From Azolla caroliniana (lineage: Eukaryota; Plantae; Polypodiophyta): DNA of 64,000 bases. The notes under the pieces are model-generated. The model was not told where the DNA came from and did no database searches. It saw only the letters and a program-made list of their open reading frames with translations. The stretch spans positions 248,001-312,000 of the forward strand of contig JBHGNT010000008.1 of assembly GCA_043228905.1 (NCBI GenBank), in the 5' to 3' direction. Below, in pieces: positions 1-55,860 of the stretch (positions within the stretch are counted from its first letter, which is position 1; the number at the start of each line of letters is the position of its first letter). Both the position numbers and the translations under genes were made by a program.

Positions 1-3000
1 CTAAAATCCGATATCACATGGGCCAGGTATGAATATTTTAATTTACTCTCGGGCTCTTCTCAACTCCCTCCTCAAATTTGGTTATTTCTTCATGTCTCTG
101 AACGTGAGTTTCAAAATCCTTATTTTTTACTTCCATATGATAGCTAACATTTTAAGCTTAGATTCAAATGTTTGAACACTAAAATCCAATATCACATGGG
201 ACAGGTATGAACATTTTAATCTACTCTCGGGCTCTTCTCAACTCCCTCCTCAAATTTGGTAATTTCTTCATGTCTCTCGACCTGAGTTTCGAAAGCTTGA
301 TTTTTTAATTCCATATCATAAGTAGCATTGTTAGCTTCGATTCGCATGTTTGAACACAAAAATCCGATATCACATGGGCAAGGTATGAACATTTTAATTT
401 ACTCTCGGGCTCTTCTCAACTCCCTCCTCTAATTTGGTAATTTCTTCATATCTCTCGACCTGAGTTTCAAAAGCTTGATTTTCTAATTCCATATCATAGC
501 TAGCATTGTTAGCTTCGATTCGCATGTTTGAACACTCAAATCCGATATCACATGGGCCAGGTATGAACATTTTAATTTACTCTCGGGCTCTTCTCAACTC
601 CCTCCTCAAATTTGGTTATTTCTTCATGTCTCTGAACGTGAGTTTCAAAATCCTTATTTTTTACTTCCATATGATAGGTAACATTTTAAGCTTAGATTCA
701 AATGTTTGAACACTAAAATCCAATATCACATGGGACAGGTATGAACATTTTAATCTACTCTCGGGCTCTTCTCAACTCCCTCCTCAAATTTGGTAATTTC
801 TTCATGTCTCTCGACCTGAGTTTCGAAAGCTTGATTTTTTAATTCCATATCATAAGTAGCATTGTTAGCTTCGATTCGCATGTTTGAACACAAAAATCCG
901 ATATCACATGGGCAAGGTATGAACATTTTAATTTACTCTCGGGCTCTTCTCAACTCCCTCCTCTAATTTGGTAATTTCTTCATATCTCTCGACCTGAGTT
1001 TCAAAAGCTTGATTTTCTAATTCCATATCATAGCTAGCATTGTTAGCTTCGATTCGCATGTTTGAACACTCAAATCCGATATCACATGGGCCAGGTATGA
1101 ACATTTTAATTTACTCTCGGGCTCTTCTCAACTCCCTCCTCAAATTTGGTTATTTCTTCATGTCTCTGAACGTGAGTTTCAAAATCCTTATTTTTTACTT
1201 CCATATGATAGGTAACATTTTAAGCTTAGATTCAAATGTTTCAACACTAAAATCCAATATCACATGGGACAGGTATGAACATTTTAATCTACTCACGGGC
1301 TCTTCTCAACTCCCTCCTCAAATTTGGTAATTTCTTCATGTCTCTCGACCTGAGTTTCGAAAGCTTGATTTTTTAATTCCATATCATAAGTAGCATTGTT
1401 AGCTTCGATTCGCATGTTTGAACACAAAAATCCGATATCACATGGGCAAGGTATGAACATTTTAATTTACTCTCGGGCTCTTCTCAATCCCTCCTCTAAT
1501 TTGGTAATTTGTTCATGTCTCTTGACCTGAGTTTCAAAAGCTTCATTTTTTAATTCCATATCATAGCTAGCATTGTTAGCTTCGATTCGCCTGTTTGAAC
1601 ACTAAAATCCGATATTCAATGGGCCAGTTATGAACATTTCAATTTACTCTCGGCCTCTTCTCAATTCCTCCTCTAATTTGGTAATTTCTTCATGTCTCTC
1701 GACCTGAGTTTCAAAATCTTGATTTTTTAATTCCATATCATTGCTAGCATTGTTAGCTTCGATTCGCCTGTTTGAACACTAAAATCCGATCTCACATGGG
1801 CCAGTTATGAACATTTTAATTTACTCTTGGCCTCTTCTCTACTCCTTCCTCTAATTTGGTAATTTCTTCATGTCTTTCGACATGAGTTTCAAAAGATTAA
1901 TTTTTTAATTCCATATCATAGGTAGCATTGTTAGCTTCGATTCGCATGTTTGAACACTAAAATCCTATATCACATGGGCCAGGTATGAACATTTTAATTT
2001 ACTCATGCGCTCTTCTCAATCCCTCCTTTAATTTGGTAATTTCTTCATGTCTCTCGACATGAGTTTCAAAATCTTGATTTTTTAATTCCATATCATAGCT
2101 ATCGTTGTTAGCTTCCATTCGCATGTTTGAACACTAATATCCGATATCACATGGGCCAGGTATGAACATTTTAATTTACTCTCGGGCTCTTCTCAACTCC
2201 CTCCTCAAATTTGGTTATTTCTTCATGTCTCTGAACGTGAGTTTCAAAATCCTTATTTTTTACTTCCATATGATAGGTAACATTTTAAGCTTAGATTCAA
2301 ATGTTTGAACACTAAAATCCAATATCACATGGGACAGGTATGAACATTTTAATCTACTCTCGGGCTCTTCTCAACTCCCTCCTCAAATTTGGTAATTTCT
2401 TCATGTCTCTCGACCTGAGTTTCGAAAGCTTTATTTTTTAATTCCATATCATAAGTAGCATTGTTAGCTTCGATTCGCATGTTTGAACACAAAAATCCGA
2501 TATCACATGGGCAAGGTATGAACATTTTAATTTACTCTCGGGCTCTTCTCAACTCCCTCCTCTAATTTGGTAATTTCTTCATATCTCTCGACCTGAGTTT
2601 CAAAAGCTTGATTTTCTAATTCCATATCATAGCTAGCATTGTTAGCTTCGATTCGCATGTTTGAACACTAAAATCCGATATCACATGGGCCAGGTATGAA
2701 CATTTTAATTTACTCTCGGGCTCTTCTCAACTCCCTCCTCAAATTTGGTTATTTCTTCATGTCTCTGAACGTGAGTTTCAAAATCCTTATTTTTTACTTC
2801 CATATGATAGGTAACATTTTAAGCTTAGATTCAAATGTTTCAACACTAAAATCCAATATCACATGGGACAGGTATGAACATTTTAATCTACTCACGGGCT
2901 CTTCTCAACTCCCTCCTCAAATTTGGTAATTTCTTCATGTCTCTCGACCTGAGTTTCGAAAGCTTGATTTTTTAATTCCATATCATAAGTAGCATTGTTA

Positions 3001-6000
3001 GCTTCGATTCGCATGTTTGAACACAAAAATCCGATATCACATGGGCAAGGTATGAACATTTTAATTTACTCTCGGGCTCTTCTCAATCCCTCCTCTAATT
3101 TGGTAATTTGTTCATGTCTCTTGACCTGAGTTTCAAAAGCTTCATTTTTTAATTCCATATCATAGCTAGCATTGTTAGCTTCGATTCGCCTGTTTAAACA
3201 CTAAAATCCGATATTCAATGGGCCAGTTATGAACATTTCAATTTACTCTCGGCCTCTTCTCAATTCCTCCTCTAATTTGGTAATTTCTTCATGTCTCTCG
3301 ACCTGAGTTTCAAAATCTTGATTTTTTAATTCCATATCATTGCTAGCATTGTTAGCTTCGATTCGCCTGTTTGAACACTAAAATCCGATCTCACATGGGC
3401 CAGTTATGAACATTTTAATTTACTCTTGGCCTCTTCTCTACTCCTTCCTCTAATTTGGTAATTTCTTCATGTCTTTCGACATGAGTTTCAAAAGATTAAT
3501 TTTTTAATTCCATATCATAGGTAGCATTGTTAGCTTCGATTCGCATGTTTGAACACTAAAATCCTATATCACATGGGCCAGGTATGAACATTTTAATTTA
3601 CTCATGCGCTCTTCTCAATCCCTCCTTTAATTTGGTAATTTCTTCATGTCTCTCGACATGAGTTTCAAAATCTTGATTTTTTAACTCCATATCATAGCTA
3701 TCGTTGTTAGCTTCCATTCGCATGTTTGAACACTAATATCCGATATCACATGGGCCAGGTATGAACATTTTAATTTACTCTCGGGCTCTTCTCAACTCCC
3801 TCCTCAAATTTGGTTATTTCTTCATGTCTCTGAACGTGAGTTTCAAAATCCTTATTTTTTACTTCCATATGATAGGTAACATTTTAAGCTTAGATTCAAA
3901 TGTTTGAACACTAAAATCCAATATCACATGGGACAGGTATGAACATTTTAATCTACTCTCGGGCTCTTCTCAACTCCCTCCTCAAATTTGGTAATTTCTT
4001 CATGTCTCTCGACCTGAGTTTCGAAAGCTTTATTTTTTAATTCCATATCATAAGTAGCATTGTTAGCTTCGATTCGCATGTTTGAACACAAAAATCCGAT
4101 ATCACATGGGCAAGGTATGAACATTTTCATTTACTCTCGGGCTCTTCTCAACTCCCTCCTCTAATTTGGTAATTTCTTTATATCTCTCGACCTGAGTTTC
4201 CAAAGCTTGATTTTCTAATGCCATATCATAGCTAGCATTGTTAGCTTCGATTCGCATGTTTGAACACTCAAATCCAATATCACATGGGCCAGGTATGAAC
4301 ATTTTAATTTACTCTCGGGCTCTTCTCAACTCCCTCCTCTAATTTGGTAATTTCTTCATATCTCTCGACCTGAGTTTCCAGAGCTTGATTTTCTAATGCC
4401 ATATCATAGCTAGCATTGTTAGCTTCGATTTGCATGTTTGAACACTAAAATCCTATATCACATGGGCCAGGTATGAACATTTTAATTTACTCATGCGCTC
4501 TTCTCAATCCCTCCTTTAATTTGGTAATTTCTTCATGTCTCTCGACATGAGTTTCAAAATCTTGATTTTTTAATTCCATATCATAGCTATCGTTGTTAGC
4601 TTCCATTCGCATGTTTCAACACTAAAATCCGATATCACATGGGCCAGGTATGAATATTTTAATTTACTCTCGGGCTCTTCTCAACTCCCTCCTCAAATTT
4701 GGTTATTTCTTCATGTCTCTGAACGTGAGTTTCAAAATCCTTATTTTTTACTTCCATATGATAGCTAACATTTTAAGCTTAGATTCAAATGTTTGAACAC
4801 TAAAATCCAATATCACATGGGACAGGTATGAACATTTTAATCTACTCTCGGGCTCTTCTCAACTCCCTCCTCAAATTTGGTAATTTCTTCATGTCTCTCG
4901 ACCTGAGTTTCGAAAGCTTGATTTTTTAATTCCATATCATAAGTAGCATTGTTAGCTTCGATTGGCATGTTTGAACACAAAAATCCGACATCACATGGGC
5001 AAGGTATGAACATTTTAATTTACTCTCGGGCTCTTCTCAACTCCCTCCTCTAATTTGGTAATTTCTTCATATCTCTCGACCTGAGTTTCAAAAGCTTGAT
5101 TTTCTAATTCCATATCATAGCTAGCATTGTTAGCTTCGATTCGCATGTTTGAACACTCAAATCCGATATCACATGGGCCAGGTATGAACATTTTAATTTA
5201 CTCTCGGGCTCTTCTCAACTCCCTCCTCAAATTTGGTTATTTCTTCATGTCTCTGAACGTGAGTTTCAAAATCCTTATTTTTTACTTCCATATGATAGGT
5301 AACATTTTAAGCTTAGATTCAAATGTTTCAACACTAAAATCCAATATCACATGGGACAGGTATGAACATTTTAATCTACTCACGGGCTCTTCTCAACTCC
5401 CTCCTCAAATTTGGTAATTTCTTCATGTCTCTCGACCTGAGTTTCGAAAGCTTGATTTTTTAATTCCATATCATAAGTAGCATTGTTAGCTTCGATTCGC
5501 ATGTTTGAACACAAAAATCCGATATCACATGGGCAAGGTATGAACATTTTAATTTACTCTCGGGCTCTTCTCAACTCCCTCCTCTAATTTGCTAATTTCT
5601 TCATATCTCTCGACCTGAGTTTCCAAAGCTTGATTTTCTAATGCTATATCATAGCTAGCATTGTTAGCTTCGATTCGCATGTTTGAACACTCAAATCCAA
5701 TATCACATGGGCCAGGTATGAACATTTTAATTTACTCTCGGGCTCTTCTCAACTCCCTCCTCTAATTTGGTAATTTCTTCATATCTCTCGACCTGAGTTT
5801 CCAGAGCTTGATTTTCTAATGCCATATCATAGCTAGCATTGTTAGCTTCGATTCGCATGTTTGAACACTAAAATCCTATATCACATGGGCCAGGTATGAA
5901 CATTTTAATTTACTCATGCGCTCTTCTCAATCCCTCCTTTAATTTGGTAATTTCTTCATGTCTCTCGACATGAGTTTCAAAATCTTGATTTTTAATTCCA

Positions 6001-9000
6001 TATCATAGCTATCGTTGTTAGCTTCCATTCGCATGTTTGAACACTAAAATCCGATATCACATGGGCCAGGTATGAACATTTTAATTTACTCTCGGGCTCT
6101 TCTCAACTCCCTCCTCAAATTTGGTTATTTCTTCATGTCTCTGAACGTGAGTTTCAAAATCCTTATTTTTTACTTCCATATGATAGCTAACATTTTAAAC
6201 TTAGATTCAAATGTTTGAACACCAAAATCCAATATCACATGGGACAGGTATGAACATTTTAATCTACTCTCGGGCTCTTCTCAACTCCCTCCTCAAATTT
6301 GGTAATTTCTTCATGTCTCTCGACCTGAGTTTCGAAAGCTTGATTTTTTAATTCCATATCATAAGTAGCATTGTTAGCTTCGATTGGCATGTTTGAACAC
6401 AAAAATCCGATATCACATGGGCAAGGTATGAACATTTTAATTTACTCTCGGACTCTTCTCAACTCCCTCCTCTAATTTGGTAATTTCTTCATATCTCTCG
6501 ACCTGAGTTTCAAAAGCTTGATTTTCTAATTCCATATCATAGCTAGCATTGTTAGCTTCGATTCGCATGTTTGAACACTCAAATCCGATATCACATGGGC
6601 CAGGTATGAACATTTTAATTTTCTCTCGGGCTCTTCTCAACTCCCTCCTCAAATTTGGTTATTTCTTCATGTCTCTTGACGTGAGTTTCAAAAGCTTGAT
6701 TTTTGAATTCCATATCATAGGTAGCTTTGCTAGCTTCGATTCGCATGTTTGAACACAAAAATCCGATATCACATGCGCCAGGTATAAACATTTTAATTTA
6801 CTCTCGGGCTCTTCTCTACTCCCTCCTCTAATTTTGGAATTTCTTCATGTCTCTCGACCTGAGTTTCAAAATCTTGATTTTTGATCTGCATAACATAGCT
6901 CGCATTGTTAACTTCGGTTCGCATATTTGAACACTAAAATCCGATATCACATGGGCCAGGTATGAACATTTTAATTTACTCTCGGCCTCTTCTCTACTCC
7001 CCCCTCTAATTTGGTAATTTCTTCATGTCTCTCGACCTGAGTTTCAAAACCTTGATTTTTTAATTCCATATCATAGCTAACATTCTTAGCTTCGATTCTC
7101 ATGTTTGAACACTAAAATCCGATATCACATGGGCCAGGTATGAACATTTTAATTTACTCTCGGGCTCTTCTCAATCCCTCCTCTAATTTGGTAATTTGTT
7201 CATGTCTCTTGACCTGAGTTTCAAAAGCTTCATTTTTTAATTCCATATCATAGCTAGCATTGTTAGCTTCGATTCGCCTGTTTGAACACTAAAATCCGAT
7301 ATTCAATGGGCCAGTTATGAACATTTCAATTTACTCTCGGCCTCTTCTCAATTCCTCCTCTAATTTGGTAATTTCTTCATGTCTCTCGACCTGAGTTTCA
7401 AAATCTTGATTTTTTAATTCCATATCATTGCTAGCATTGTTAGCTTCGATTCGCCTGTTTGAACACTAAAATCCGATCTCACATGGGCCAGTTATGAACA
7501 TTTTAATTTACTCTTGGCCTCTTCTCTACTCCTTCCTCTAATTTGGTAATTTCTTCATGTCTTTCGACATGAGTTTCAAAAGATTAATTTTTTAATTCCA
7601 TATCATAGGTAGCATTGTTAGCTTCGATTCGCATGTTTGAACACTAAAATCCTATATCACATGGGCCAGGTATGAACATTTTAATTTACTCATGCGCTCT
7701 TCTCAATCCCTCCTTTAATTTGGTAATTTCTTCATGTCTCTCGACATGAGTTTCAAAATCTTGATTTTTTAATTCCATATCATAGCTATCGTTGTTAGCT
7801 TCCATTCGCATGTTTGAACACTAATATCCGATATCACATGGGCCAGGTATGAACATTTTAATTTACTCTCGGGCTCTTCTCAACTCCCTCCTCAAATTTG
7901 GTTATTTCTTCATGTCTCTGAACGTGAGTTTCAAAATCCTTATTTTTTACTTCCATATGATAGCTAACATTTTAAGCTTAGATTCAAATGTTTGAACACT
8001 AAAATCCAATATCACATGGGACAGGTATGAACATTTTAATCTACTCTCGGGCTCTTCTCAACTCCCTCCTCAAATTTGGTAATTTCTTCATGTCTCTCGA
8101 CCTGAGTTTCGAAAGCTTTATTTTTTAATTCCATATCATAAGTAGCATTGTTAGCTTCGATTCGTATGTTTGAACACAAAAATCCGATATCACATGGGCA
8201 AGGTATGAACATTTTCATTTACTCTCGGGCTCTTCTCAACTCCCTCCTCTAATTTGGTAATTTCTTCATATCTCTCGACCTGAGTTTCCAAAGCTTGATT
8301 TTCTAATGCCATATCATAGCTAGCATTGTTAGCTTCGATTCGCATGTTTGAACACTCAAATCCAATATCACATGGACCAGGTATGAACATTTTAATTTAC
8401 TCTCGGGCTCTTCTCAACTCCCTCCTCTAATTTGGTAATTTCTTCATATCTCTCGACCTGAGTTTCCAGAGCTTGATTTTCTAATGCCATATCATAGCTA
8501 GCATTGTTAGCTTCGATTCGCATGTTTGAACACTAAAATCCTATATCACATGGGCCAGGTATGAACATTTTAATTTACTCATGCGCTCTTCTCAATCCCT
8601 CCTTTAATTTGGTAATTTCTTCATGTCTCTCGACATGAGTTTCAAAATCTTGATTTTTTAATTCCATATCATAGCTATCGTTGTTAGCTTCCATTCGCAT
8701 GTTTCAACACTAAAATCCGATATCACATGGGCCAGGTATGAACATTTTAATTTACTCTCGGGCTCTTCTCAACTCCCTCCTCAAATTTGGTTATTTCTTC
8801 ATGTCTCTGAACGTGAGTTTCAAAATCCTTATTTTTTACTTTCATATGATAGCTAACATTTTAAGCTTAGATTCAAATGTTTGAACACTAAAATCCAATA
8901 TCACATGGGACAGGTATGAACATTTTAATCTACTCTCGGGCTCTTCTCAACTCCCTCCTCAAATTTGGTAATTTCTTCATGTCTCTCGACCTGAGTTTCG

Positions 9001-9416
9001 AAAGCTTGATTTTCTAATGCCATATCATAGCTAGCATTGTTAGCTTCGATTCGCATGTTTGAACACTCAAATCCAATATCACATGGGCCAGGTATGAACA
9101 TTTTAATTTACTCTCGGGCTCTTCTCAACTCCCTCCTCTAATTTGGTAATTTCTTCATATCTCTCGACCTGAGTTTCCAGAGCTTGATTTTCTAATGCCA
9201 TATCATAGCTAGCATTGTTAGCTTCGATTCGCATGTTTGAACACTAAAATTCTATATCACATGGGCCAGGTATGAAAATTTTAATTTACTCATGCGCTCT
9301 TCTCAATCCCTCCTTTAATTTGGTAATTTCTTCATGTCTCTCGACATGAGTTTCAAAATCTTGATTTTTTAATTCCATATCATAGCTATCGTTGTTAGCT
9401 TCCATTCGCATGTTTG
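1..9416 (+). repeat. 178-bp tandem satellite array, segment 1 (centromere-like)
   Basis: CTAAAATCC at 1 recurs at 179. The monomer core GTTTGAACACTAAAATCCGATATCACATGGGCCAGGTATGAACATTTTAATTTACTCTCGGGCTCTTCTC repeats head-to-tail. The same spurious ORF start recurs at 506 and 1040 (3x178). Centromeric function is inferred only from monomer size and organisation. Confidence 0.97.
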
Positions 9417-9487
9417 TGTCATAACTAGACTCGAACCCATAACCTTTTGTTACACGGGTCGAGACTTTACCATTAGGTTATGAGTTG
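9417..9487 (-). other. tRNA-like Pol III A-box/B-box cassette at the U3 terminus, antisense to the element (also 14678-14748 -, 50782-50852 +, 56080-56150 +)
   Basis: Minus strand reads A-box-like TAACCTAATGG (9480-9470) and B-box GGTTCGAGTC (9437-9428) at canonical tRNA positions 8-19 and 52-61. The stems are degenerate, so this is not a functional tRNA gene. Confidence 0.6.
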
Positions 9488-9539
9488 TAATTTGAAGGAT
9501 ATTATTTTCATTTAGGTTTTATTAGGAAATTGATGTATA

Positions 9540-9587
9540 TTCCAGATTTCTCTGGAACATTCTAGAAACTTCAGGAGTATTCCTGAA
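9540..9587. promoter_or_regulatory. Heat-shock element array of 10 in-phase alternating nTTCn/nGAAn units (also 14801-14848, 50682-50729, 55980-56027)
   Basis: TTC-ca-GAt-tt-cTC-tg-GAA-ca-TTC-ta-GAA-ac-TTC-ag-GAg-ta-TTC-ct-GAA. Seven of ten units are perfect, including four consecutive ones. Ends 5 bp before the TATA box. Confidence 0.8.
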
Positions 9588-9592
9588 GACAC

Positions 9593-9599
9593 TATAAAA
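9593..9599 (+). promoter_or_regulatory. TATA box of the LTR promoter
   Basis: TATAAAA, starting 33 nt upstream of the PBS-complementary sequence that is the predicted transcript 5' end. Confidence 0.75.
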
Positions 9600-9706
9600 G
9601 GAGGCGCAAGGCATTAGTTCGAACCAAATCAGTTCAACGCCAGTCTTAAGCCTTCTAACTACTGTTGTATATCTTCCGTCATATAATACATATATCTTTC
9701 GCATCA

Positions 9707-9710
<4 letters not shown>

Positions 9711-9746
<36 letters not shown>
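9711..9746 (+). repeat. (TC)n microsatellite within the LTR
   Basis: (TC)18 here, (TC)20 in the 3' LTR, and (GA)17 and (GA)16 in the two LTRs of copy 2. Confidence 0.95.
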
Positions 9747-9750
<4 letters not shown>

Positions 9751-9844
9751 ACTCATTCCTTCTCTCAAAGTTCGACACCTCTCATAGTACTAATCCTTCT
9801 TTTAGTACTAATTCCTTCTCTGCCTTAATAGAGTTCCTGACAGT

Positions 9845-9856
9845 TTGAACCGATTT
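9845..9856 (+). other. Primer-binding site, self-priming (Tf1-type)
   Basis: TTGAACCGATTT lies 2 nt after the LTR end and lacks the TGG complementary to tRNA CCA. It is the exact reverse complement of LTR sequence AAATCGGTTCAA (14887-14898; one mismatch in the 9626-9637 copy). Confidence 0.8.
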
Positions 9857-9931
9857 CTCCCTACTAGTCTCCCTCTTCCTTCTGTCTCTCTCCTTTCCTA
9901 CTAGTCTCTTATTTCCCTTTTCCTTCATCCC

Positions 9932-11101
9932 ATGGCCACCGTTAGCGCTGAAGAGTATCAATCCGTTTTCTCGGAATTTCAATGCTTGAAAGAGAAGTTT
10001 CATGCTTTGGAACAAGAAAATCAACGCTTGTTGGGGGATCTTCAGCAAATTTCCTTAGAAAAGCAGCAAACGCAACAACAGCATGGGGAACTTGCGTTAC
10101 GCGTGCAACAACTCGAAGCAACCATCGTAGCAATGCAACAACAAGGGCACGGAGCACAAGGGATTCATAAAGAACCCAAGATTGGCCTTCCCACGAAGTT
10201 CGATGGAACGCGATCGCAGTTTAGAGGGTTTCTTAACCAGGTACGGTTAGTTATTCAAATGCATCCGTCCCGATATCCCACCGATGCATCACGAGTCGGT
10301 TTAGTAGGCACGTTGTTAAATGGCTCAGCATTAGCATGGTTCGCTCCGCTACTAGAAAAGGAATCTCCAGTACTAAATAATTTTGAAGAATTCATAAGTG
10401 AGTTTAAAGCATGTTTTGGAGATACTGACAGCATAAGGACTGCAATCAACAAAATCCGGCGATTACGCCAAGGTGACCGTCCAGCCTCCGCATATGCTGC
10501 AGATTTCCGCCTACTCGCCGCCGATATCCCCTGGGATGATCAAGCATTGATGGAGCAGTTCCGCTATGGTCTACGCAACGATGTCAAGGATTTACTCTTG
10601 ACTTTCCCTGAAGAGCCAAAATCATTAACAGAAGCAATCAGTCGAGCGGTCAGATGTGACAACCGCCTCTTCGAGCGACGTTCGGAACGACAATTTCAGA
10701 TGCCGAGGGCAAGATCCGAGCCTACCTATGCCTCAATGGTAGCGAAACCTTTTCAAAGGGAGTCACATAATGCGCCTCCAGTAAGTACTCCAACTCCAAT
10801 GGAAATTGACACTACACGTCGTCGTGGGCCGCTATCGGAGGAGGAAAAGCAACGACGCCGAACAAACCGATTATGCCTTTATTGCGGTGGACCAGGGCAT
10901 ATCGCGATAAACTGTCCCCATAGACCAAGAAGGCAGGTAAACCAAGTCATTGTTAGTTCTGACTATACTAAACCCGAGTCTATGTCAGTAGGAATCTCTG
11001 ATAATCCTCATAGTCATAATAGTCCTAATAGTACTAATAGTCCGAATCTCGCAAACAAATTTGATGTCCTTAGCCAATTAGAAGAAGAGTTAAACGACTA
11101 A
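9932..11101 (+). CDS. gag: Gag polyprotein (N-terminal coiled coil, Ty3-type capsid, CCHC zinc knuckle), 389 aa
   Basis: ATG in CCCATGG context. Q/E/L-rich heptad N-terminus, KFDG capsid motif, LRQG major-homology-like region, and CLYCGGPGHIAINC (CX2CX4HX4C). Confidence 0.95.
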   Translation: MATVSAEEYQSVFSEFQCLKEKFHALEQENQRLLGDLQQISLEKQQTQQQHGELALRVQQLEATIVAMQQQGHGAQGIHKEPKIGLPTKFDGTRSQFRGFLNQVRLVIQMHPSRYPTDASRVGLVGTLLNGSALAWFAPLLEKESPVLNNFEEFISEFKACFGDTDSIRTAINKIRRLRQGDRPASAYAADFRLLAADIPWDDQALMEQFRYGLRNDVKDLLLTFPEEPKSLTEAISRAVRCDNRLFERRSERQFQMPRARSEPTYASMVAKPFQRESHNAPPVSTPTPMEIDTTRRRGPLSEEEKQRRRTNRLCLYCGGPGHIAINCPHRPRRQVNQVIVSSDYTKPESMSVGISDNPHSHNSPNSTNSPNLANKFDVLSQLEEELND

Positions 11102-11133
11102 GTCCAGCCAAAATAGGAGCCGTTTGGTTGGAC
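11089..11133 (+). promoter_or_regulatory. Programmed -1 ribosomal frameshift signal (slippery G_TTA_AAC plus stem-loop)
   Basis: The pol frame is -1 relative to gag and open from 11074. Heptamer at 11089-11095, 6-nt spacer, then an 11-bp stem GTCCAGCCAAA/TTTGGTTGGAC with one G-U pair. Confidence 0.8.
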
Positions 11134-14100
11134 AGCCCTAGATCTGTGCAGCCCATTAGTGGTTCCATTCCCTCTAAGCAAGTTAGTGATGTGTTCGTAG
11201 TCCAAGTAGCAGTTAGTACTAAAAGTACCCCTCCAGTACATACCTTAGCCCTTCTAGATTCCGGAGCTAATTCTTGCTTCATGGATAGGAATTTTGCCCG
11301 AGCTCATCAGATATCTCTCAGAAAGCTCCCATGTCCAGCCTCAGTAGTAGTCATTGATGGTCGTCCCATTGCTTCTGGTAATATCATAGAAGAGTCGGAA
11401 CCCGTTAATATTGTCCTAGATAACTTAACATGTGTAGTATCATTTAATATTATTAGTATTCCAGAACATCCCATAGTTTTAGGATTACCATGGTTCGAGT
11501 TACATGACCCAGACATAGATTGGAGGACAAGGGAAATCCGGTTGCGACAAACCCAAGGATCTACCCAGAAGGTTGCAACCATTTCGCTACGTCAGTTGCG
11601 TGAGGAAGGGCGCAAGGAGGAAATGTTTCTCTTTGCAATATCAGTACAACCCTCCAGCACCACCAAAGAGGAGTCCACCGTTCAACTCCCCGAGAAGTAT
11701 CGTCAGTATGCTGATGTGTTCGATAAAGTACAAGCCAACACACTTCCTCATCATCGGCCGTACGACTGCGCCATCGACTTACAACCGGGAAAAGAGCCGC
11801 CATGGGGGCCGATCTACAATTTGTCACCAACCGAGCTAGAAGTCCTTCGAGCCTATATAGAGGAGAATTTGGAGAACGGTTTCATTCAGCATTCGAAATC
11901 TCCAGCCGGCGCACCCATTTTCTTCGTCAAGAAAAAAGATGGCTCGCTTCGACTCGTTGTAGATTACCGTGGCTTGAATAAGGTCACAGTAAGAAATAGG
12001 TATGCTCTTCCCCTTATCTCAAGTCTTTTAGAACGGATCAACGGTGCCAGGTTCTTCACGAAGATCGACTTACGAGGAGCCTATAACCTCGTACGGATCC
12101 AACCAGGAGATGAATGGAAGACCGCGTTTCGCACCAGATATGGGCATTTCGAGTATACGGTCATGCCGTTCGGACTCACTAATGCGCCGGCAGTCTTCCA
12201 GCACATGGCGAATGATATATTTCGAGACCTCTTGGATGATTTTTTGATCATCTATTTGGATGATCTACTGGTTTATTCAAAGACCCAAGAAGAACATGAT
12301 TCTCATGTACTATTAGTACTAAAACGACTTCGAGAACATGGTCTGTATGCAAAGTTAGAGAAATGTAGTTTCGGGTGCAACCAAGTGGAGTTTCTCGGCT
12401 ATGTCATCTCCTCAGAAGGCATATCTATGGACCCAGCCAAGGTCAAAACGGTGATAGAATGGCACACTCCGCGTTCGGTGCGGGATGTGCAATGCTTCCT
12501 AGGCTTTGCAAATTTCTACCGGAAGTTCATACAAAATTACTCAAAAATTGTGCTACCTCTCACACAGCTCACCAGGAAGGGACAATCATTCATTTGGTCT
12601 AAAGAGACGGACATGGCTTTCGAGAGTCTTAAGAAGGCGTTTACATCAGCTCCAATTTTAGGTCATGTGGATCCGGAAAAACCATTCATTATCGAAGCTG
12701 ATGCATCGGATTTCGCATTGGGGAGCATTCTGTCACAACAGGGTAACGACGAGAAGCTACATCCTGTGGCTTTCCACTCCCGTAAGTTTGACGCCGCCGA
12801 AATCAACTACGAAATTCATGATAAAGAGCTATTAGCAATAGTTGATTCTTTTATGCAATGGAGGCATTTCCTGGAGGGATCTCCTCATCAGGTCACTGTA
12901 TTCAGTGACCACAAGAACCTTGCCTACTTTCAAGATGCTCGTGTACTGAATCGACGTCAAGCTCGGTGGGCCCATTTCCTCACACGCTTCGACTTCAAAA
13001 TTACATATCGTCCGGGGAAGCACCAAGGGAAGGCAGATGCATTATCACGGCGTTCGTATCTAACACCACGTCCCGGTGAGCCAGCTTTCGATAACCAGAA
13101 GCAAGTAATCTTGGGTCCAGCACGACTGCAAGCAGCACAGATCTTTGACATGCCCGTGGATTCCGACATTACCAATACTATACGTGAGGACTTGAAGACT
13201 GACGCTTTCGCCCAAGCTATACTAGCACAAATTGACCCCTCTCGAGCGTCATGTTCACAATCACAATCACCAGGTACGGATTATCGGCAATTCAAATACT
13301 GTGATGGATTACTCTTCTTTAAAGAACTTTTGTATGTTCCTAATGGTTCTTGCCGCCTTCGAGTAGTACAAAACTGCCATGACACATATACAGCAGGACA
13401 TTTTGGTAGTACTAAAACATTAGATTTAGTACAACGATCATTCTGGTGGCCCCGTATGCGACAATTTGTCGAAGATTTTGTTCGGACTTGCGATACATGC
13501 TGCAGAGCGAAAATGCCAAGACATCATCCATATGGTTTATTAGAACCATTACCAATTCCAAGCAAGCCATGGCAATCCATTGCTCTTGACTTCATTACAG
13601 ATCTTCCAGTCTCTAAGGGATTCAGTGCGATTCTCACAGTGGTGGATCGATATACGAAGATGGCTCATTTCTTACCATGTACTAAAGAAATATCTAGTGA
13701 AGACACCGCCGAAATTGTCATGCGGGAAGTATGTCGGCATCATGGACTCCCTGATAATATCATCAGCGATCGTGGACCCCAGTTTGTGTCAAAATTCTGG
13801 AAGCACCTTTTTAAAATGCTCAAGGTCACTTGTAACCTCTCCTCCGGCTACCACCCACAAACCGACGGTCAAGCCGAACGAACAAATCAAACACTGGAGC
13901 AGTATCTGCGGTGCTTTCTCAACTATCATCAGAATGACTGGGCAGATATTCTTCCGTTCGCCGAATTTGCCTATAATAACGCTATCCACGCATCGACTAA
14001 AGTCACGCCATTCTACGCTTATACGGGATATCATCCCCGGTGGTGTGTCCTTGAAACCCCAGAAGTGTCCACAAATCCTTGCGCGGAGGATCGTTTGGAG

Positions 14101-14685
14101 CGGTTACGCAAGATACAAGCGGATTTATCTACTCAACTCCAACAAGCTCAACAATCACACAAGGACTACGCAGATCGTCATCGACTTCCATCCAGTTTTA
14201 ACATTGGAGATCGGGTGTGGCTGCTACGACGACACATCAAGACTACTCGCCCATGTGAGAAGTTGGATTATCGACGATTAGGTCCTTTCCGTATTATCGG
14301 GAAGATTAATGATGTCGCTTTTCGTCTCGAGCTACCTCCGCAACTTCGGATACACCCGGTGTTTCATAGTTCTCTCCTCGAACCCTATCACGAGAGCACT
14401 ATCCCAGGACGTACTATACAACCTCCACCTCCTATCGAGCTCGAAGATGGACCTGAGTATGAGGTCGCTGCCATCCTCGATTCCAAGATTGTTCGCAACA
14501 AGCTCTACTATCTAGTCGATTGGCTAGGATATAGTCCCAGCGAGCGTACTTGGGAACCGATCGAGAATGTGACCAATGCTCGTGCTCTTCTAGAAGACTT
14601 CCATCGACGATATCCCGAGAAACCGGGTCCTCAATCCAAAACGACTCGTGAAACTCGTCGTTTTAAAGGGGGGATAGTGTCATAA
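11128..14685 (+). CDS. pol: Pol polyprotein: aspartic protease, reverse transcriptase, RNase H, integrase, chromodomain (frame open from 11074; probably made as a Gag-Pol fusion)
   Basis: LLDSGA (PR). VMPFGL and YLDD (RT). EADASD (RH). HX6H...CDTC, LDF, SDRG and GQAERTN (IN). LGPF (GPY/F motif). EYEVAAIL...YLVDWLGY...TWEP (chromodomain). Confidence 0.97.
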   Translation: MDSPRSVQPISGSIPSKQVSDVFVVQVAVSTKSTPPVHTLALLDSGANSCFMDRNFARAHQISLRKLPCPASVVVIDGRPIASGNIIEESEPVNIVLDNLTCVVSFNIISIPEHPIVLGLPWFELHDPDIDWRTREIRLRQTQGSTQKVATISLRQLREEGRKEEMFLFAISVQPSSTTKEESTVQLPEKYRQYADVFDKVQANTLPHHRPYDCAIDLQPGKEPPWGPIYNLSPTELEVLRAYIEENLENGFIQHSKSPAGAPIFFVKKKDGSLRLVVDYRGLNKVTVRNRYALPLISSLLERINGARFFTKIDLRGAYNLVRIQPGDEWKTAFRTRYGHFEYTVMPFGLTNAPAVFQHMANDIFRDLLDDFLIIYLDDLLVYSKTQEEHDSHVLLVLKRLREHGLYAKLEKCSFGCNQVEFLGYVISSEGISMDPAKVKTVIEWHTPRSVRDVQCFLGFANFYRKFIQNYSKIVLPLTQLTRKGQSFIWSKETDMAFESLKKAFTSAPILGHVDPEKPFIIEADASDFALGSILSQQGNDEKLHPVAFHSRKFDAAEINYEIHDKELLAIVDSFMQWRHFLEGSPHQVTVFSDHKNLAYFQDARVLNRRQARWAHFLTRFDFKITYRPGKHQGKADALSRRSYLTPRPGEPAFDNQKQVILGPARLQAAQIFDMPVDSDITNTIREDLKTDAFAQAILAQIDPSRASCSQSQSPGTDYRQFKYCDGLLFFKELLYVPNGSCRLRVVQNCHDTYTAGHFGSTKTLDLVQRSFWWPRMRQFVEDFVRTCDTCCRAKMPRHHPYGLLEPLPIPSKPWQSIALDFITDLPVSKGFSAILTVVDRYTKMAHFLPCTKEISSEDTAEIVMREVCRHHGLPDNIISDRGPQFVSKFWKHLFKMLKVTCNLSSGYHPQTDGQAERTNQTLEQYLRCFLNYHQNDWADILPFAEFAYNNAIHASTKVTPFYAYTGYHPRWCVLETPEVSTNPCAEDRLERLRKIQADLSTQLQQAQQSHKDYADRHRLPSSFNIGDRVWLLRRHIKTTRPCEKLDYRRLGPFRIIGKINDVAFRLELPPQLRIHPVFHSSLLEPYHESTIPGRTIQPPPPIELEDGPEYEVAAILDSKIVRNKLYYLVDWLGYSPSERTWEPIENVTNARALLEDFHRRYPEKPGPQSKTTRETRRFKGGIVS
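14665..14677 (+). other. Polypurine tract
   Basis: AAAGGGGGGATAG immediately precedes TGTCA of the 3' LTR. Confidence 0.9.
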
Positions 14686-14967
14686 CTAGACTCGAACCCA
14701 TAACCTTTTGTTACACGGGTCGAGACTTTACCATTAGGTTATGAGTTGTAATTTGAAGGATATTATTTTCATTTAGGTTTTATTAGGAAATTGATGTATA
14801 TTCCAGATTTCTCTGGAACATTCTAGAAACTTCAGGAGTATTCCTGAAGACACTATAAAAGGAGGCGCAAGGCATTAGTTCGAACCAAATCGGTTCAACG
14901 CCAGTCTTAAGCCTTCTAACTACTGTTGTATATCTTCCGTCATATAATACATATATCTTTCGCATCA

Positions 14968-15015
<48 letters not shown>

Positions 15016-15148
15016 ACTCATTCCTTCTCTCAAAGTTCGACACCTCTCATAGTACTAATCCTTCTCTGTCTTAGTACTATTCCCCAACAATAGTACTAAT
15101 CCTTCTTTTAGTACTAATTCCTTCTCTGCCTTAATAGAGTTCCTGACA
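14678..15148 (+). repeat. 3' LTR of copy 1 (471 bp)
   Basis: TGTCA...TGACA, followed by TSD GTTTG. Confidence 0.96.
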
Positions 15149-50387: not shown

Positions 50388-50520
50388 TGTCAGGAACTCT
50401 ATTAAGGCAGAGAAGGAATTAGTACTAAAAGAAGGATTAGTACTATTGTTGGGGAATAGTACTAAGACAGAGAAGGATTAGTACTATGAGAGGTGTCGAA
50501 CTTTGAGAGAAGGAATGAGT

Positions 50521-50562
<42 letters not shown>

Positions 50563-50852
50563 TGATGCGAAAGATATATGTATTATATGACGGAAGATAT
50601 ACAACAGTAGTTAGAAGGCTTAAGACTGGCGTTGAACCGATTTGGTTCGAACTAATGCCTTGCGCCTCCTTTTATAGTGTCTTCAGGAATACTCCTGAAG
50701 TTTCTAGAATGTTCCAGAGAAATCTGGAATATACATCAATTTCCTAATAAAACCTAAATGAAAATAATATCCTTCAAATTACAACTCATAACCTAATGGT
50801 AAAGTCTCGACCCGTGTAACAAAAGGTTATGGGTTCGAGTCTAGTTATGACA
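50388..50852 (-). repeat. 3' LTR of copy 2 (465 bp)
   Basis: TGTCAGG...TTATGACA on +, adjacent to the PPT complement CTATCCCCCCTTT (50853-50865). Confidence 0.96.
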
Positions 50853-53800
50853 CTATCCCCCCTTTAAAACGACGAGTTTCACGAGTCGTTTTGGATTGAG
50901 GACCCGGTTTCTCGGGATATCGTCGATGGAAGTCTTCTAGAAGAGCACGAGCATTGGTCACATTCTCGATCGGTTCCCAAGTACGCTCGCTGGGACTATA
51001 TCCTAGCCAATCGACTAGATAGTAGAGCTTGTTGCGAACAATCTTGGAATCGAGGATGGCAGCGACCTCATACTCAGGTCCATCTTCGAGCTCGATAGGA
51101 GGTGGAGGTTGTATAGTACGTCCTGGGATAGTGCTCTCGTGATAGGGTTCGAGGAGAGAACTATGAAACACCGGGTGTATCCGAAGTTGCGGAGGTAGCT
51201 CGAGACGAAAAGCGACATCATTAATCTTCCCGATAATACGGAAAGGACCTAATCGTCGATAATCCAACTTCTCACATGGGCGAGTAGTCTTGATGTGTCG
51301 TCGTAGCAGCCACACCCGATCTCCAATGTTAAAACTGGATGGAAGTCGATGACGATCTGCGTAGTCCTTGTGTGATTGTTGAGCTTGTTGGAGTTGAGTA
51401 GATAAATCCGCTTGTATCTTGCGTAACCGCTCCAAACGATCCTCCGCGCAAGGATTTGTGGACACTTCTGGGGTTTCAAGGACACACCACCGGGGATGAT
51501 ATCCCGTATAAGCGTAGAATGGCGTGACTTTAGTCGATGCGTGGATAGCGTTATTATAGGCAAATTCGGCGAACGGAAGAATATCTGCCCAGTCATTCTG
51601 ATGATAGTTGAGAAAGCACCGCAGATACTGCTCCAGTGTTTGATTTGTTCGTTCGGCTTGACCGTCGGTTTGTGGGTGGTAGCCGGAGGAGAGGTTACAA
51701 GTGACCTTGAGCATTTTAAAAAGGTGCTTCCAGAATTTTGACACAAACTGGGGTCCACGATCGCTGATGATATTATCAGGGAGTCCATGATGCCGACATA
51801 CTTCCCGCATGACAATTTCGGCGGTGTCTTCACTAGATATTTCTTTAGTACATGGTAAGAAATGAGCCATCTTCGTATATCGATCCACCACTGTGAGAAT
51901 CGCACTGAATCCCTTAGAGACTGGAAGATCTGTAATGAAGTCAAGAGCAATGGATTGCCATGGCTTGCTTGGAATTGGTAATGGTTCTAATAAACCATAT
52001 GGATGATGTCTTGGCATTTTCGCTCTGCAGCATGTATCGCAAGTCCGAACAAAATCTTCGACAAATTGTCGCATACGGGGCCACCAGAATGATCGTTGTA
52101 CTAAATCTAATGTTTTAGTACTACCAAAATGTCCTGCTGTATATGTGTCATGGCAGTTTTGTACTACTCGAAGGCGGCAAGAACCATTAGGAACATACAA
52201 AAGTTCTTTAAAGAAGAGTAATCCATCACAGTATTTGAATTGCCGATAATCCGTACCTGGTGATTGTGATTGTGAACATGACGCTCGAGAGGGGTCAATT
52301 TGTGCTAGTATAGCTTGGGCGAAAGCGTCAGTCTTCAAGTCCTCACGTATAGTATTGGTAATGTCGGAATCCACGGGCATGTCAAAGATCTGTGCTGCTT
52401 GCAGTCGTGCTGGACCCAAGATTACTTGCTTCTGGTTATCGAAAGCTGGCTCACCGGGACGTGGTGTTAGATACGAACGCCGTGATAATGCATCTGCCTT
52501 CCCTTGGTGCTTCCCCGGACGATATGTAATTTTGAAGTCGAAGCGTGTGAGGAAATGGGCCCACCGAGCTTGACGTCGATTCAGTACACGAGCATCTTGA
52601 AAGTAGGCAAGGTTCTTGTGGTCACTGAATACAGTGACCTGATGAGGAGATCCCTCCAGGAAATGCCTCCATTGCATAAAAGAATCAACTATTGCTAATA
52701 GCTCTTTATCATGAATTTCGTAGTTGATTTCGGCGGCGTCAAACTTACGGGAGTGGAAAGCCACAGGATGTAGCTTCTCGTCGTTACCCTGTTGTGACAG
52801 AATGCTCCCCAATGCGAAATCCGATGCATCAGCTTCGATAATGAATGGTTTTTCCGGATCCACATGACCTAAAATTGGAGCTGATGTAAACGCCTTCTTA
52901 AGACTCTCGAAAGCCATGTCCGTCTCTTTAGACCAAATGAATGATTGTCCCTTCCTGGTGAGCTGTGTGAGAGGTAGCACAATTTTTGAGTAATTTTGTA
53001 TGAACTTCCGGTAGAAATTTGCAAAGCCTAGGAAGCATTGCACATCCCGCACCGAACGCGGAGTGTGCCATTCTATCACCGTTTTGACCTTGGCTGGGTC
53101 CATAGATATGCCTTCTGAGGAGATGACATAGCCGAGAAACTCCACTTGGTTGCACCCGAAACTACATTTCTCTAACTTTGCATACAGACCATGTTCTCGA
53201 AGTCGTTTTAGTACTAATAGTACATGAGAATCATGTTCTTCTTGGGTCTTTGAATAAACCAGTAGATCATCCAAATAGATGATCAAAAAATCATCCAAGA
53301 GGTCTCGAAATATATCATTCGCCATGTGCTGGAAGACTGCCGGCGCATTAGTGAGTCCGAACGGCATGACCGTATACTCGAAATGCCCATATCTGGTGCG
53401 AAACGCGGTCTTCCATTCATCTCCTGGTTGGATCCGTATGAGGTTATAGGCTCCTCGTAAGTCGATCTTCGTGAAGAACCTGGCACCGTTGATCCGTTCT
53501 AAAAGACTTGAGATAAGGGGAAGAGCATACCTATTTCTTACTGTGACCTTATTCAAGCCACGGTAATCTACAACGAGTCGAAGCGAGCCATCTTTTTTCT
53601 TGACGAAGAAAATGGGTGCGCCGGCTGGAGATTTCGAATGCTGAATGAAACCGTTCTCCAAATTCTCCTCTATATAGGCTCGAAGGACTTCTAGCTCGGT
53701 TGGTGACAAATTGTAGATCGGCCCCCATGGCGGCTCTTTTCCCGGTTGTAAGTCGATGGCGCAGTCGTACGGCCGATGATGAGGAAGTGTGTTGGCTTGT

Positions 53801-54402
53801 ACTTTATCGAACACATCAGCATACTGACGATACTTCTCGGGGAGTTGAACGGTGGACTCCTCTTTGGTGGTGCTGGAGGGTTGTACTGATATTGCAAAGA
53901 GAAACATTTCCTCCTTGCGCCCTTCCTCACGCAACTGACGTAGCGAAATGGTTGCAACCTTCTGGGTAGATCCTTGGGTTTGTCGCAACCGGATTTCCCT
54001 TGTCCTCCAATCTATGTCTGGGTCATGTAACTCGAACCATGGTAATCCTAAAACTATGGGATGTTCTGGAATACTAATAATATTAAATGATACTACACAT
54101 GTTAAGTTATCTAGGACAATATTAACGGGTTCCGACTCTTCTATGATATTACCAGAAGCAATGGGACGACCATCAATGACTACTACTGAGGCTGGACATG
54201 GGAGCTTTCTGAGAGATATCTGATGAGCTCGGGCAAAATTCCTATCCATGAAGCAAGAATTAGCTCCGGAATCTAGAAGGGCTAAGGTATGTACTGGAGG
54301 GGTACTTTTAGTACTAACTGCTACTTGGACTACGAACACATCACTAACTTGCTTAGAGGGAATGGAACCACTAATGGGCTGCACAGATCTAGGGCTGTCC
54401 AA
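50845..54402 (-). CDS. pol: Pol polyprotein (PR-RT-RH-IN-chromodomain), copy 2
   Basis: 1185-aa ORF matching copy 1 except NLVRI>NLIRI. The frameshift signal is mirrored at 54397-54441. Confidence 0.97.
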   Translation of the reverse strand: MDSPRSVQPISGSIPSKQVSDVFVVQVAVSTKSTPPVHTLALLDSGANSCFMDRNFARAHQISLRKLPCPASVVVIDGRPIASGNIIEESEPVNIVLDNLTCVVSFNIISIPEHPIVLGLPWFELHDPDIDWRTREIRLRQTQGSTQKVATISLRQLREEGRKEEMFLFAISVQPSSTTKEESTVQLPEKYRQYADVFDKVQANTLPHHRPYDCAIDLQPGKEPPWGPIYNLSPTELEVLRAYIEENLENGFIQHSKSPAGAPIFFVKKKDGSLRLVVDYRGLNKVTVRNRYALPLISSLLERINGARFFTKIDLRGAYNLIRIQPGDEWKTAFRTRYGHFEYTVMPFGLTNAPAVFQHMANDIFRDLLDDFLIIYLDDLLVYSKTQEEHDSHVLLVLKRLREHGLYAKLEKCSFGCNQVEFLGYVISSEGISMDPAKVKTVIEWHTPRSVRDVQCFLGFANFYRKFIQNYSKIVLPLTQLTRKGQSFIWSKETDMAFESLKKAFTSAPILGHVDPEKPFIIEADASDFALGSILSQQGNDEKLHPVAFHSRKFDAAEINYEIHDKELLAIVDSFMQWRHFLEGSPHQVTVFSDHKNLAYFQDARVLNRRQARWAHFLTRFDFKITYRPGKHQGKADALSRRSYLTPRPGEPAFDNQKQVILGPARLQAAQIFDMPVDSDITNTIREDLKTDAFAQAILAQIDPSRASCSQSQSPGTDYRQFKYCDGLLFFKELLYVPNGSCRLRVVQNCHDTYTAGHFGSTKTLDLVQRSFWWPRMRQFVEDFVRTCDTCCRAKMPRHHPYGLLEPLPIPSKPWQSIALDFITDLPVSKGFSAILTVVDRYTKMAHFLPCTKEISSEDTAEIVMREVCRHHGLPDNIISDRGPQFVSKFWKHLFKMLKVTCNLSSGYHPQTDGQAERTNQTLEQYLRCFLNYHQNDWADILPFAEFAYNNAIHASTKVTPFYAYTGYHPRWCVLETPEVSTNPCAEDRLERLRKIQADLSTQLQQAQQSHKDYADRHRLPSSFNIGDRVWLLRRHIKTTRPCEKLDYRRLGPFRIIGKINDVAFRLELPPQLRIHPVFHSSLLEPYHESTIPGRTIQPPPPIELEDGPEYEVAAILDSKIVRNKLYYLVDWLGYSPSERTWEPIENVTNARALLEDFHRRYPEKPGPQSKTTRETRRFKGGIVS

Positions 54403-54428
54403 CCAAACGGCTCCTATTTTGGCTGGAC

Positions 54429-55598: not shown

Positions 55599-55673
55599 GG
55601 GATGAAGGAAAAGGGAAATAAGAGACTAGTAGGAAAGGAGAGAGACAGAAGGAAGAGGGAGACTAGTAGGGAG

Positions 55674-55685
55674 AAATCGGTTCAA
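55674..55685 (-). other. Self-priming PBS of copy 2
   Basis: AAATCGGTTCAA on + is the perfect 12/12 inverted partner of TTGAACCGATTT at 55930-55941 in the 5' LTR. Confidence 0.8.
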
Positions 55686-55687
55686 AC

Positions 55688-55820
55688 TGTCAGGAACTCT
55701 ATTAAGGCAGAGAAGGAATTAGTACTAAAAGAAGGATTAGTACTATTGTTGGGGAATAGTACTAAGACAGAGAAGGATTAGTACTATGAGAGGTGTCGAA
55801 CTTTGAGAGAAGGAATGAGT

Positions 55821-55860
<40 letters not shown>

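What the first reader, a model, noticed from the sequence alone, without database searches (positions are those of the whole stretch)
9540..9599. Ten-unit heat-shock element array abutting the TATA box
Seen: 48 bp of phased alternating TTC/GAA pentamers (7 of 10 perfect, core GAAcaTTCtaGAAacTTC), ending 5 bp before TATAAAA and intact in all four LTRs. Established: three alternating nGAAn units bind one HSF trimer, and the Arabidopsis copia element ONSEN is heat-activated through LTR HSEs. Inference: room for about three HSF trimers makes this a strongly heat-inducible gypsy chromovirus that could escape silencing inside satellite chromatin under stress.
Basis: partly seen in the sequence, partly recalled or inferred. 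Interest (0 to 1): 0.8.

Follow-up and report, generated by a model that had tools for sequence, protein, structure and literature searches.

The report
Heat-shock promoter in abundant plant chromoviruses
A young, very abundant family of plant jumping genes carries textbook heat-shock-factor binding sites just upstream of its promoter, so heat likely switches it on, while sister families in the same genome carry a different repeated motif in that place; no expression data were available to test this.

Summary
The array is real: 48 bp, 7 of 10 perfect units, 5 bp above TATAAAA, identical in all four LTRs, and unmatched by 20,000 shuffles. It lies in the U3 of a young, self-priming Tcn1-type chromovirus. 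Self-priming geometry predicts a start 33 nt below this TATA. Only the four perfect units (9555-9572) are conserved above background among relatives; the TATA-abutting tenth unit is not, so "three trimers" is overstated. The genome holds 5,872 perfect four-unit sites (control 54), and about 4,400 match this core plus TATA. Families A-C keep the same register to the TATA, a fourth family also has HSE runs, other LTR clades lack them (0 of 37), and sister families carry an RY/G-box-like module instead. "Escape from silencing in satellite" is unsupported: 27 of 30 closest LTR loci lack the satellite, and unlike ONSEN the LTR has CG/CHG sites with a methylation-type mutation bias. Heat induction is inferred, not shown; the moss chromovirus RLG1 is heat-repressed. 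The mechanism is known (ONSEN; flatworm Ty3 elements), and the scan noted an HSE-rich LTR before in another genome. The lineage, scale and module swap look new.

The parts
9540..9587 (+). Ten phased nGAAn/nTTCn units in U3 of the E1 5' LTR (7 perfect; an eleventh, G-keeping unit at 9535)
9555..9572 (+). Perfect four-unit HSE core, the only part conserved above background among relatives
9593..9599 (+). TATA box, 33 nt above the predicted transcript start
   Evidence: (majority-base frequency 0.99)
9626..9637 (+). Predicted 5' end of the RNA and self-primer, complementary to the PBS; this one LTR has a substitution at 9631
9417..9842 (+). E1 5' LTR (TG...CA), with a 45-bp U5 deletion relative to the other three LTRs
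9843..9856 (+). Primer-binding site complementary to the element's own predicted 5' end (self-priming type)
9932..11101 (+). gag ORF (Retrotrans_gag, Ty3_capsid, zinc knuckle)
11074..14685 (+). pol ORF in the -1 frame (protease, RT, RNase H, integrase, SH3, chromodomain)
14665..14677 (+). Polypurine tract
14678..15148 (+). E1 3' LTR, array at 14801-14848; element flanked by a 5-bp target duplication (9412-9416, 15149-15153)
50388..56150 (-). Element E2: LTRs 50388-50852 and 55688-56150, arrays at 50682-50729 and 55980-56027, its own 5-bp target duplication; 3 substitutions from E1
1..9416 (.). 178-bp satellite into which both elements inserted (continues 15149-50387 and 56151-64000)

Best explanation
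The 48-bp array is the promoter-proximal module in the LTR of a young, high-copy, Tcn1-type chromovirus with a self-priming-type primer site, and its conserved four-unit core likely binds the host's heat-shock factor and would switch on transcription from the adjacent TATA box under heat or other protein-damaging stress. Shown: the array, its place in U3, its conservation pattern, its restriction to this lineage, and host HSF genes and HSP promoters with the same grammar. Inferred: one or two cooperating class-A HSF trimers sit on 9555-9582 (about -71 to -44 from the predicted start at 9626), the outer units add weak sites, and the transcript's first 12 nt fold back on the PBS to prime reverse transcription. 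Inferred too: most copies are methylated, so induction would come from a few young or poorly methylated copies, with no special role for the satellite.
For: Array far beyond chance. Core conserved above the rest of the LTR in 30 non-identical relatives: 0.975 against 0.887, p 0.002; 0.978 against 0.911, p 0.014 in the 27 family-A rows. Families B and C, whose LTRs blastn does not align to this one, keep TTC at -33 and -23 or -13 and GAA at -28 from the TATA, as here; family E also has HSE runs. A run of 4 or more perfect units in both LTRs of 11 of 11 Tcn1-type LTR pairs and no run of 3 in 37 other pairs. 41 of 58 protein-anchored LTR regions have such a run. Primer 5' end 31-33 nt below the TATA in 16 of 28 gag-anchored LTRs. 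14 of 25 host small-HSP loci have arrays with 3 or more perfect units, none longer or with more perfect units than this one. Ten HSF DNA-binding-domain matches in the genome. Four-unit perfect elements go with up to thousand-fold induction in Brassicaceae copia elements (PMC5059998, passages); HSEs are required for heat activation of a Ty3 LTR in Macrostomum (PMC12801592, section 5); canonical HSEs mark MpHSFA1 targets in a liverwort (PMC9516188, passages).
Against: No binding or expression was measured. Two Macrostomum copia families with one HSE were not induced. The LTR carries CG and CHG sites, four CHG sites fall on key G:C pairs of the array, and LTR pairs show transitions at CG 27 of 291, CHG 43 of 333, CHH 90 of 2509. 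The host also has HSF genes with a class-B repressor-type motif (label recalled). Six of the seven sampled blocks were chosen where pattern or family hits were listed; in the one blind block only 4 of 9 anchors had a four-unit run, 7 of 9 a run of three or more. Relatives share ancestry, so the conservation p-values are optimistic.
Confidence: 0.68

Rival explanations
1. The array binds HSFs, but the useful output is developmental or non-heat expression (meristem, spore-forming tissue, oxidative or drought stress), or class-B HSFs repress it during heat.
For: RLG1 of Physcomitrium is expressed in unstressed protonema and repressed by heat. The host has genes with class-B-type motifs (2 of 8 HSF loci read; motif recalled). 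MpHSFB1-dependent HSE genes relate to morphogenesis. Sister families use an RY/G-box-like module in the same place, which suggests selection for a stage of expression.
Against: The core is the canonical perfect type used by the host's own small-HSP promoters and by MpHSFA1 targets; in published cases four perfect units give strong heat induction.
Confidence: 0.17
2. The HSE once drove the family but is now silenced by CG/CHG methylation in nearly all copies, including these two, so heat produces little or no transcript.
For: CG and CHG transitions between LTR pairs are 2.6 and 3.6 times the CHH rate; CHG sites on four key pairs; unlike ONSEN, whose LTR has no CG or CHG (PMC3907296, passages).
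Against: 544 exact copies of a 37-nt promoter stretch, no change in the 66-nt array region in 30 of 30 closest loci and 0-1 substitutions between LTRs show a very recent burst. Three of the four core G:C pairs are in CHH context.
Confidence: 0.1
3. The 10-bp periodic palindromes arose by local tandem duplication of a TTCTAGAA-type unit and serve another factor or a structural role; the likeness to an HSE is incidental.
For: Families C and E show long tandem expansions of CTAGA-containing units, many imperfect; outer units are no better conserved than flanks.
Against: In the core, the GAA/TTC letters (351 of 360) are better kept than the spacers (163 of 180); the register to the TATA is kept across families A-C; host HSP promoters use the same pattern.
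Confidence: 0.05

Closest known systems
ONSEN/ATCOPIA78, TERESTRA, COPIA37, ROMANIAT5 of Brassicaceae (PMC3907296 and PMC5059998, passages; PMC13602373, abstract)
   Same: Plant LTR retrotransposon with a perfect four-unit heat-shock element in the LTR.
   Different: Those are Ty1/copia, low copy (8 ONSEN in Col-0); ONSEN's LTR has no CG/CHG. This is a Ty3/gypsy chromovirus lineage with thousands of LTRs, 10 CG and 10 CHG sites, and no expression test.
HSE-bearing Ty3 families of Macrostomum lignano: Mag, CsRN1, Gmr1/Osvaldo (PMC12801592, abstract and section 5)
   Same: Ty3/gypsy LTR promoters with canonical HSEs upstream of the start; over 250-fold heat induction there, HSE-dependent.
   Different: Animal, non-chromovirus clades, 4-20 copies per family, independent gains; here one plant radiation shares the module at a fixed register.
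Tcn1 clade of plant chromoviruses: SM-Tcn1, PpatensLTRs (PMC2864245, PMC6317226, passages)
   Same: Separate gag and pol ORFs, LTR of about 440-470 bp, 5-bp target duplication, chromodomain, predicted self-priming, T-rich leader.
   Different: No HSE is mentioned in the passages read; membership was not tested by a tree with reference sequences.
RLG1 and RLG2 of Physcomitrium patens (PMC7466625, passages and supplementary legends)
   Same: RLG1 is a dominant chromodomain gypsy family of a non-seed plant; RLG2 is induced by heat and ABA.
   Different: RLG1 is repressed by heat; the LTR motifs of neither were available to compare.
Tcn12 of Cryptococcus (PMC9942834, passages); PHRE1/PHRE2 of moso bamboo (PMC8656106, passages)
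   Same: Heat-responsive LTR elements.
   Different: Tcn12 has only a putative imperfect step-type HSE and is described as copia-like; the PHRE paper's main text has no hit for 'HSE' and reports TCP, DOF and GATA partners.

Membership tests
Canonical heat-shock element (4P type) | Four or more contiguous alternating nGAAn units | tested here: met
   9555-9572
Canonical heat-shock element (4P type) | Lies upstream of a functional TATA and start site | tested here: inconclusive
   TATA conserved and 31-33 nt above the self-primer; the start is predicted, not mapped
Canonical heat-shock element (4P type) | Bound by HSF | not testable with these tools
   Host HSF genes are present; no binding data
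ONSEN-like heat-activated retrotransposon | Heat-induced transcript or extrachromosomal DNA | not testable with these tools
   No heat-treated RNA could be examined
ONSEN-like heat-activated retrotransposon | [quoted passage not shown] | tested here: not met
   10 CG, 10 CHG; 4 CHG in the array; ONSEN has none
ONSEN family proper | Ty1/copia domain order | tested here: not met
   PR-RT-RH-INT-chromo, Ty3/gypsy order
Chromovirus | Ty3/gypsy pol with a C-terminal chromodomain | tested here: met
   PF00385, E 2e-14
Tcn1 clade | Self-priming PBS in place of a tRNA PBS | tested here: met
   12-nt complement of the predicted 5' end; perfect pairing in 17 of 28 gag-anchored LTRs, in two alternative versions (6 and 11); folds back in silico
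Tcn1 clade | Chromodomain with aromatic cage | tested here: met
   Y, W and Y present in the printed domain; cage positions recalled from HP1-type domains
Tcn1 clade | Groups with reference Tcn1 elements in an RT-RH-INT tree | not tested
   No reference sequences were in hand; trees hold only unnamed relatives. The only species-named gag relative among the 120 listed is fungal, 52% identical
Satellite- or centromere-targeting chromovirus (CRM-like) | Insertions concentrated in the satellite | tested here: not met
   27 of 30 closest LTR loci without satellite; no further copy in 200 kb of flanking satellite

The most novel reading that the evidence does not exclude
One self-priming chromovirus radiation runs a fixed TATA-primer-PBS chassis with exchangeable stress modules (HSF sites against RY/G-box-like sites). 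The HSF version out-amplified its sisters about fifty-fold and now supplies roughly three quarters of the genome's perfect GAA-first four-unit HSEs, enough to drive heat-triggered transposition bursts, act as an HSF sink, and put neighbouring genes under heat control.
Probability: 0.25. Interest if true: 0.72.

Novelty: new variant of a known kind. Interest (0 to 1): 0.46.

Why it matters
HSE capture by LTR elements has been validated in Brassicaceae copia elements and flatworm Ty3 elements, all low-copy families. Here a heat-shock module sits in several families of a dominant, recently expanding chromovirus lineage of a land plant. If it is functional, warming would act directly on a large part of this genome's mobile DNA, and the host's HSF would face thousands of decoy or cryptic sites. 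The sister families with a different module in the same place give a natural control for asking whether the choice of stress promoter sets amplification success.

Tried and rejected
Expression: no RNA holder listed; four contig sets were laid and cannot show start, level or treatment, so they are not used. Satellite targeting: rejected; two copies in 264 kb exceed the family average (expected 0.14, p 0.009), but the window was selected for them and all HSE-type elements together would give about 1.1. Ten functional units or three trimers: not supported by conservation. HSE as a trait of all related chromoviruses: rejected; among 79 metagenome loci, 59 had 400 nt or more after the integrase, and 4 of these had a run of three or more units, none of the 49 under 60% identity. 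Order of promoter swaps: undecided. A first clade test (p 0.0016) was flawed because a row of unknown module stood in the wrong group; without the three unknown rows neither one HSE clade (p 0.13) nor one RY clade (p 0.31) is rejected. The ABRE-like pattern was defined after seeing the data; strict ABREs occur only in L245 and L340, and RY counts exceed shuffles only in L245 of the four tested. Host identity: a homologue search with an HSF exon gave only unnamed hits, so the host stays an unnamed land plant. The RLG1 LTR was not in the one supplement read (three spreadsheets not opened). Extra loci for families D and E were not obtained; copies already held were used.

Full report
OBSERVATION. 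The window is a 178-bp satellite with two insertions: E1 at 9417-15148 (+) and E2 at 50388-56150 (-), each with TG...CA ends and its own 5-bp target duplication. They differ by 3 substitutions and small indels, and their LTRs differ by 0-1 substitution, so they are independent, very young insertions. At 9540-9587 ten phased units alternate TTC/GAA, 7 perfect and all 10 keeping the key G:C pair; GACAC and TATAAAA (9593) follow, and the 60 bp are identical in all four LTRs. None of 20,000 dinucleotide shuffles of the LTR exceeded 22 of 30 matching bases or 5 perfect units, against 27 and 7 observed.

THE ELEMENT. Gag (9932-11101) and a -1-frame pol (11074-14685) carry Ty3 capsid, protease, RT, RNase H, integrase, SH3 and chromodomain matches. 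The bases after the 5' LTR are complementary to LTR bases 9626-9637, and the predicted RNA folds these together. The same pairing is perfect in 17 of 28 gag-anchored LTRs, in two alternative sequence versions (6 and 11), and the primer's 5' end lies 31-33 nt below the TATA in 16 of them (the script looked for perfect pairs, so the 11 misses are unclassified). Self-priming is described as the mark of the Tcn1 clade among plant chromoviruses, known from mosses and club-mosses (PMC6317226, passages; PMC2864245, passages). By the Tf1 model (recalled) the primer is the 5' end of the RNA, which puts the start near 9626 and makes this TATA the likely core promoter. Clade membership was not tested with reference sequences.

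SCALE. The genome (523 Mb) has 5,872 perfect GAAnnTTCnnGAAnnTTC sites against 54 for the reversed control and 2,485 against 91 for the TTC-first form. 4,402 matches have this family's core with a TATA 10-35 nt below, control 0 (a few may be double counts), which is about three quarters of the first count. A 37-nt stretch of this subfamily's promoter occurs 544 times exactly. In 1.2 Mb of sampled DNA all 48 clusters of perfect four-unit sites were of this LTR type: 40 by pattern, 8 by reading the printed sequence.

SPECIFICITY. Among 48 hand-picked LTR pairs in 800 kb, 11 of 11 Tcn1-type pairs have a run of four or more perfect units in both LTRs and 0 of 37 others have a run of three. The others are mostly copia by motif (26 of 37, some through nested inserts); Pfam on 19 of their ORFs gave 8 copia, 7 gypsy, 4 no family. 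Anchoring on gag or chromodomain, 41 of 58 regions have a run of four or more, 5 of three, 8 of two or fewer, 4 none. Six of seven blocks were chosen at listed hits; the blind block gave 4 of 9 with four and 7 of 9 with three or more.

WHAT IS CONSERVED. Of 44 alignable LTR regions, 30 remained after dropping near-copies. Majority-base frequency: core trinucleotides 0.975, outer units 0.874, background 0.887 (p 0.002 and 0.70; family A alone 0.978, 0.890, 0.911, p 0.014 and 0.78). The TATA scores 0.99. The unit at 9585 is GAA in 6 of 30; the G at 9575 is kept in 30 of 30 and TTC at 9540 in 26 of 30. So selection is visible on four units, perhaps with help from neighbours, not on ten. Families B and C (gag about 60-69% identical, LTRs not alignable by blastn) keep TTC at -33 and -23 or -13 and GAA at -28 from the TATA, the window's register; family E and an unassigned family D also have HSE-like runs.

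HOST CONTEXT. Ten HSF DNA-binding-domain matches; of 8 loci read, 7 printed the recognition-helix motif, 3 end in class-A-type and 2 in class-B-type motifs (motif labels recalled). 14 of 25 small-HSP loci have arrays with three or more perfect units, the longest 8 units with 5 perfect, and 8 have a TATA 25-57 nt below. The LTR array is at least as strong as these. Canonical HSEs mark HSFA1 targets in Marchantia (PMC9516188, passages). The host is a land plant; it was not named, and a non-seed plant is inferred from the Tcn1 distribution.

A DIFFERENT MODULE IN SISTER FAMILIES. Metagenome relatives at 82% and 73% integrase identity have the arrays (L236-L238), and L247 at 60% has HSE-like runs at its LTR start; L239, L240, L242, L244 and L245 (66-68%) have a TATA and self-primer (PBS seen in L239 and L244) but no HSE, carrying repeated GCCA-n-n-TGGC palindromes and CATGCA words instead. 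The same type is in this genome: 117 pattern matches, about 80 distinct; 0 of 23 distinct loci read have a three-unit run and all have CATGCA words. Reading these as ABRE/G-box and RY sites is recalled, and only L245 beats shuffles for RY and strict ABRE. HSE and RY types form one well-supported group (100/99) in which family B groups with the RY types (96/94); the order of events is unresolved. The fifty-fold difference in counts compares two patterns of unlike stringency and few lineages.

SILENCING AND SATELLITE. 27 of the 30 closest LTR loci have no satellite within 1.5 kb; the other 3 are this window's. 200 kb of flanking satellite holds no further copy. The satellite is small: 1,895 exact 18-mer matches, the first 100 on two contigs near their starts. 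ONSEN's LTR has no CG or CHG (PMC3907296, passages); this LTR has 10 of each, with four CHG in the array, and 20 LTR pairs show transitions at 9.3% of CG, 12.9% of CHG and 3.6% of CHH sites, a methylation-type bias. Three of four core G:C pairs are CHH.

MECHANISM AND ODDS. Most likely (0.68) class-A HSF binds the core and activates the adjacent TATA under heat, from a subset of copies. Four perfect units go with up to thousand-fold induction in Brassicaceae (PMC5059998, passages), and HSE mutation abolishes heat activation of a flatworm Ty3 LTR (PMC12801592, section 5). Against: RLG1 of Physcomitrium is heat-repressed (PMC7466625, passages), two HSE-bearing flatworm copia families were not induced, and the LTRs look methylated. 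Rivals: non-heat or repressive HSF use (0.17), relic silenced module (0.10), incidental repeat (0.05).

NOVELTY. The mechanism is known. Ten searches of the open library (listings, plus passages of PMC11656987, PMC9942834, PMC8725346, PMC8656106 and the abstract of PMC13602373) showed no report of HSEs in Tcn1-type or other plant chromovirus LTRs, or of an HSE/RY module swap; subscription papers and unread supplements may hold one. The scan has noted HSE-rich LTRs on other DNA and none in this genome. Verdict: new variant of a known kind, interest 0.46.

Noticed in passing
window 9631 and E1 5' LTR U5: E1's 5' LTR has a substitution inside the predicted self-primer (duplex energy -8.4 against -14.6 kcal/mol) and a 45-bp U5 deletion that the other three LTRs lack.
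   Followed up: partly
window 15149-15156: E1 landed where the satellite reads the same 8 letters as the start of the element's own PBS, so its 3' LTR is followed by a PBS-like stretch; E2 did not. Possibly chance.
   Followed up: no
L315-L316 (G000:C1, about 7294600-7300600): A family-C copy is rearranged: a 507-bp pol-end/U3/primer segment stands in inverted repeat (97%), with one junction exactly at the primer/PBS complement, like a template switch at the self-priming pair.
   Followed up: partly
L239, L240, L242, L244, L245; L325-L354: Sister families with a TATA and self-primer of the same type but RY/G-box-like repeats in place of the HSE.
   Followed up: yes
L090; G000:C7 block position 191363; matches: An abundant LTR-like family D with HSE-like runs, TATA and a related primer word, but no gag or pol match nearby in the copies held; possibly non-autonomous.
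   Followed up: partly
G000:C9:17.88-18.26 Mb (L057-L076): A cluster of about 15 small heat-shock protein genes, most with HSE arrays.
   Followed up: partly
window 11074-11101: gag and pol overlap by 28 nt in the -1 frame with a GTTAAAC word just before the gag stop; a ribosomal frameshift site is likely.
   Followed up: no
G000:C2:12246775-12277627: Ten closely spaced copies of the promoter 37-mer on both strands, four of them 3,190 bp apart: a tandem or rearranged cluster of the element.
   Followed up: no
G000:C8:217674-220343: A 2.67-kb non-satellite insert in the flanking satellite, unrelated to this family.
   Followed up: no
window 26000-46800: The satellite shows higher-order structure: a 753-bp repeat with a 41-bp duplication and a unit of about 5.7 kb.
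   Followed up: no
L007 and L028: A family-A copy inserted into the R region of a family-C LTR, and a family-B LTR fragment lies near another family-A copy: nesting within the lineage.
   Followed up: no
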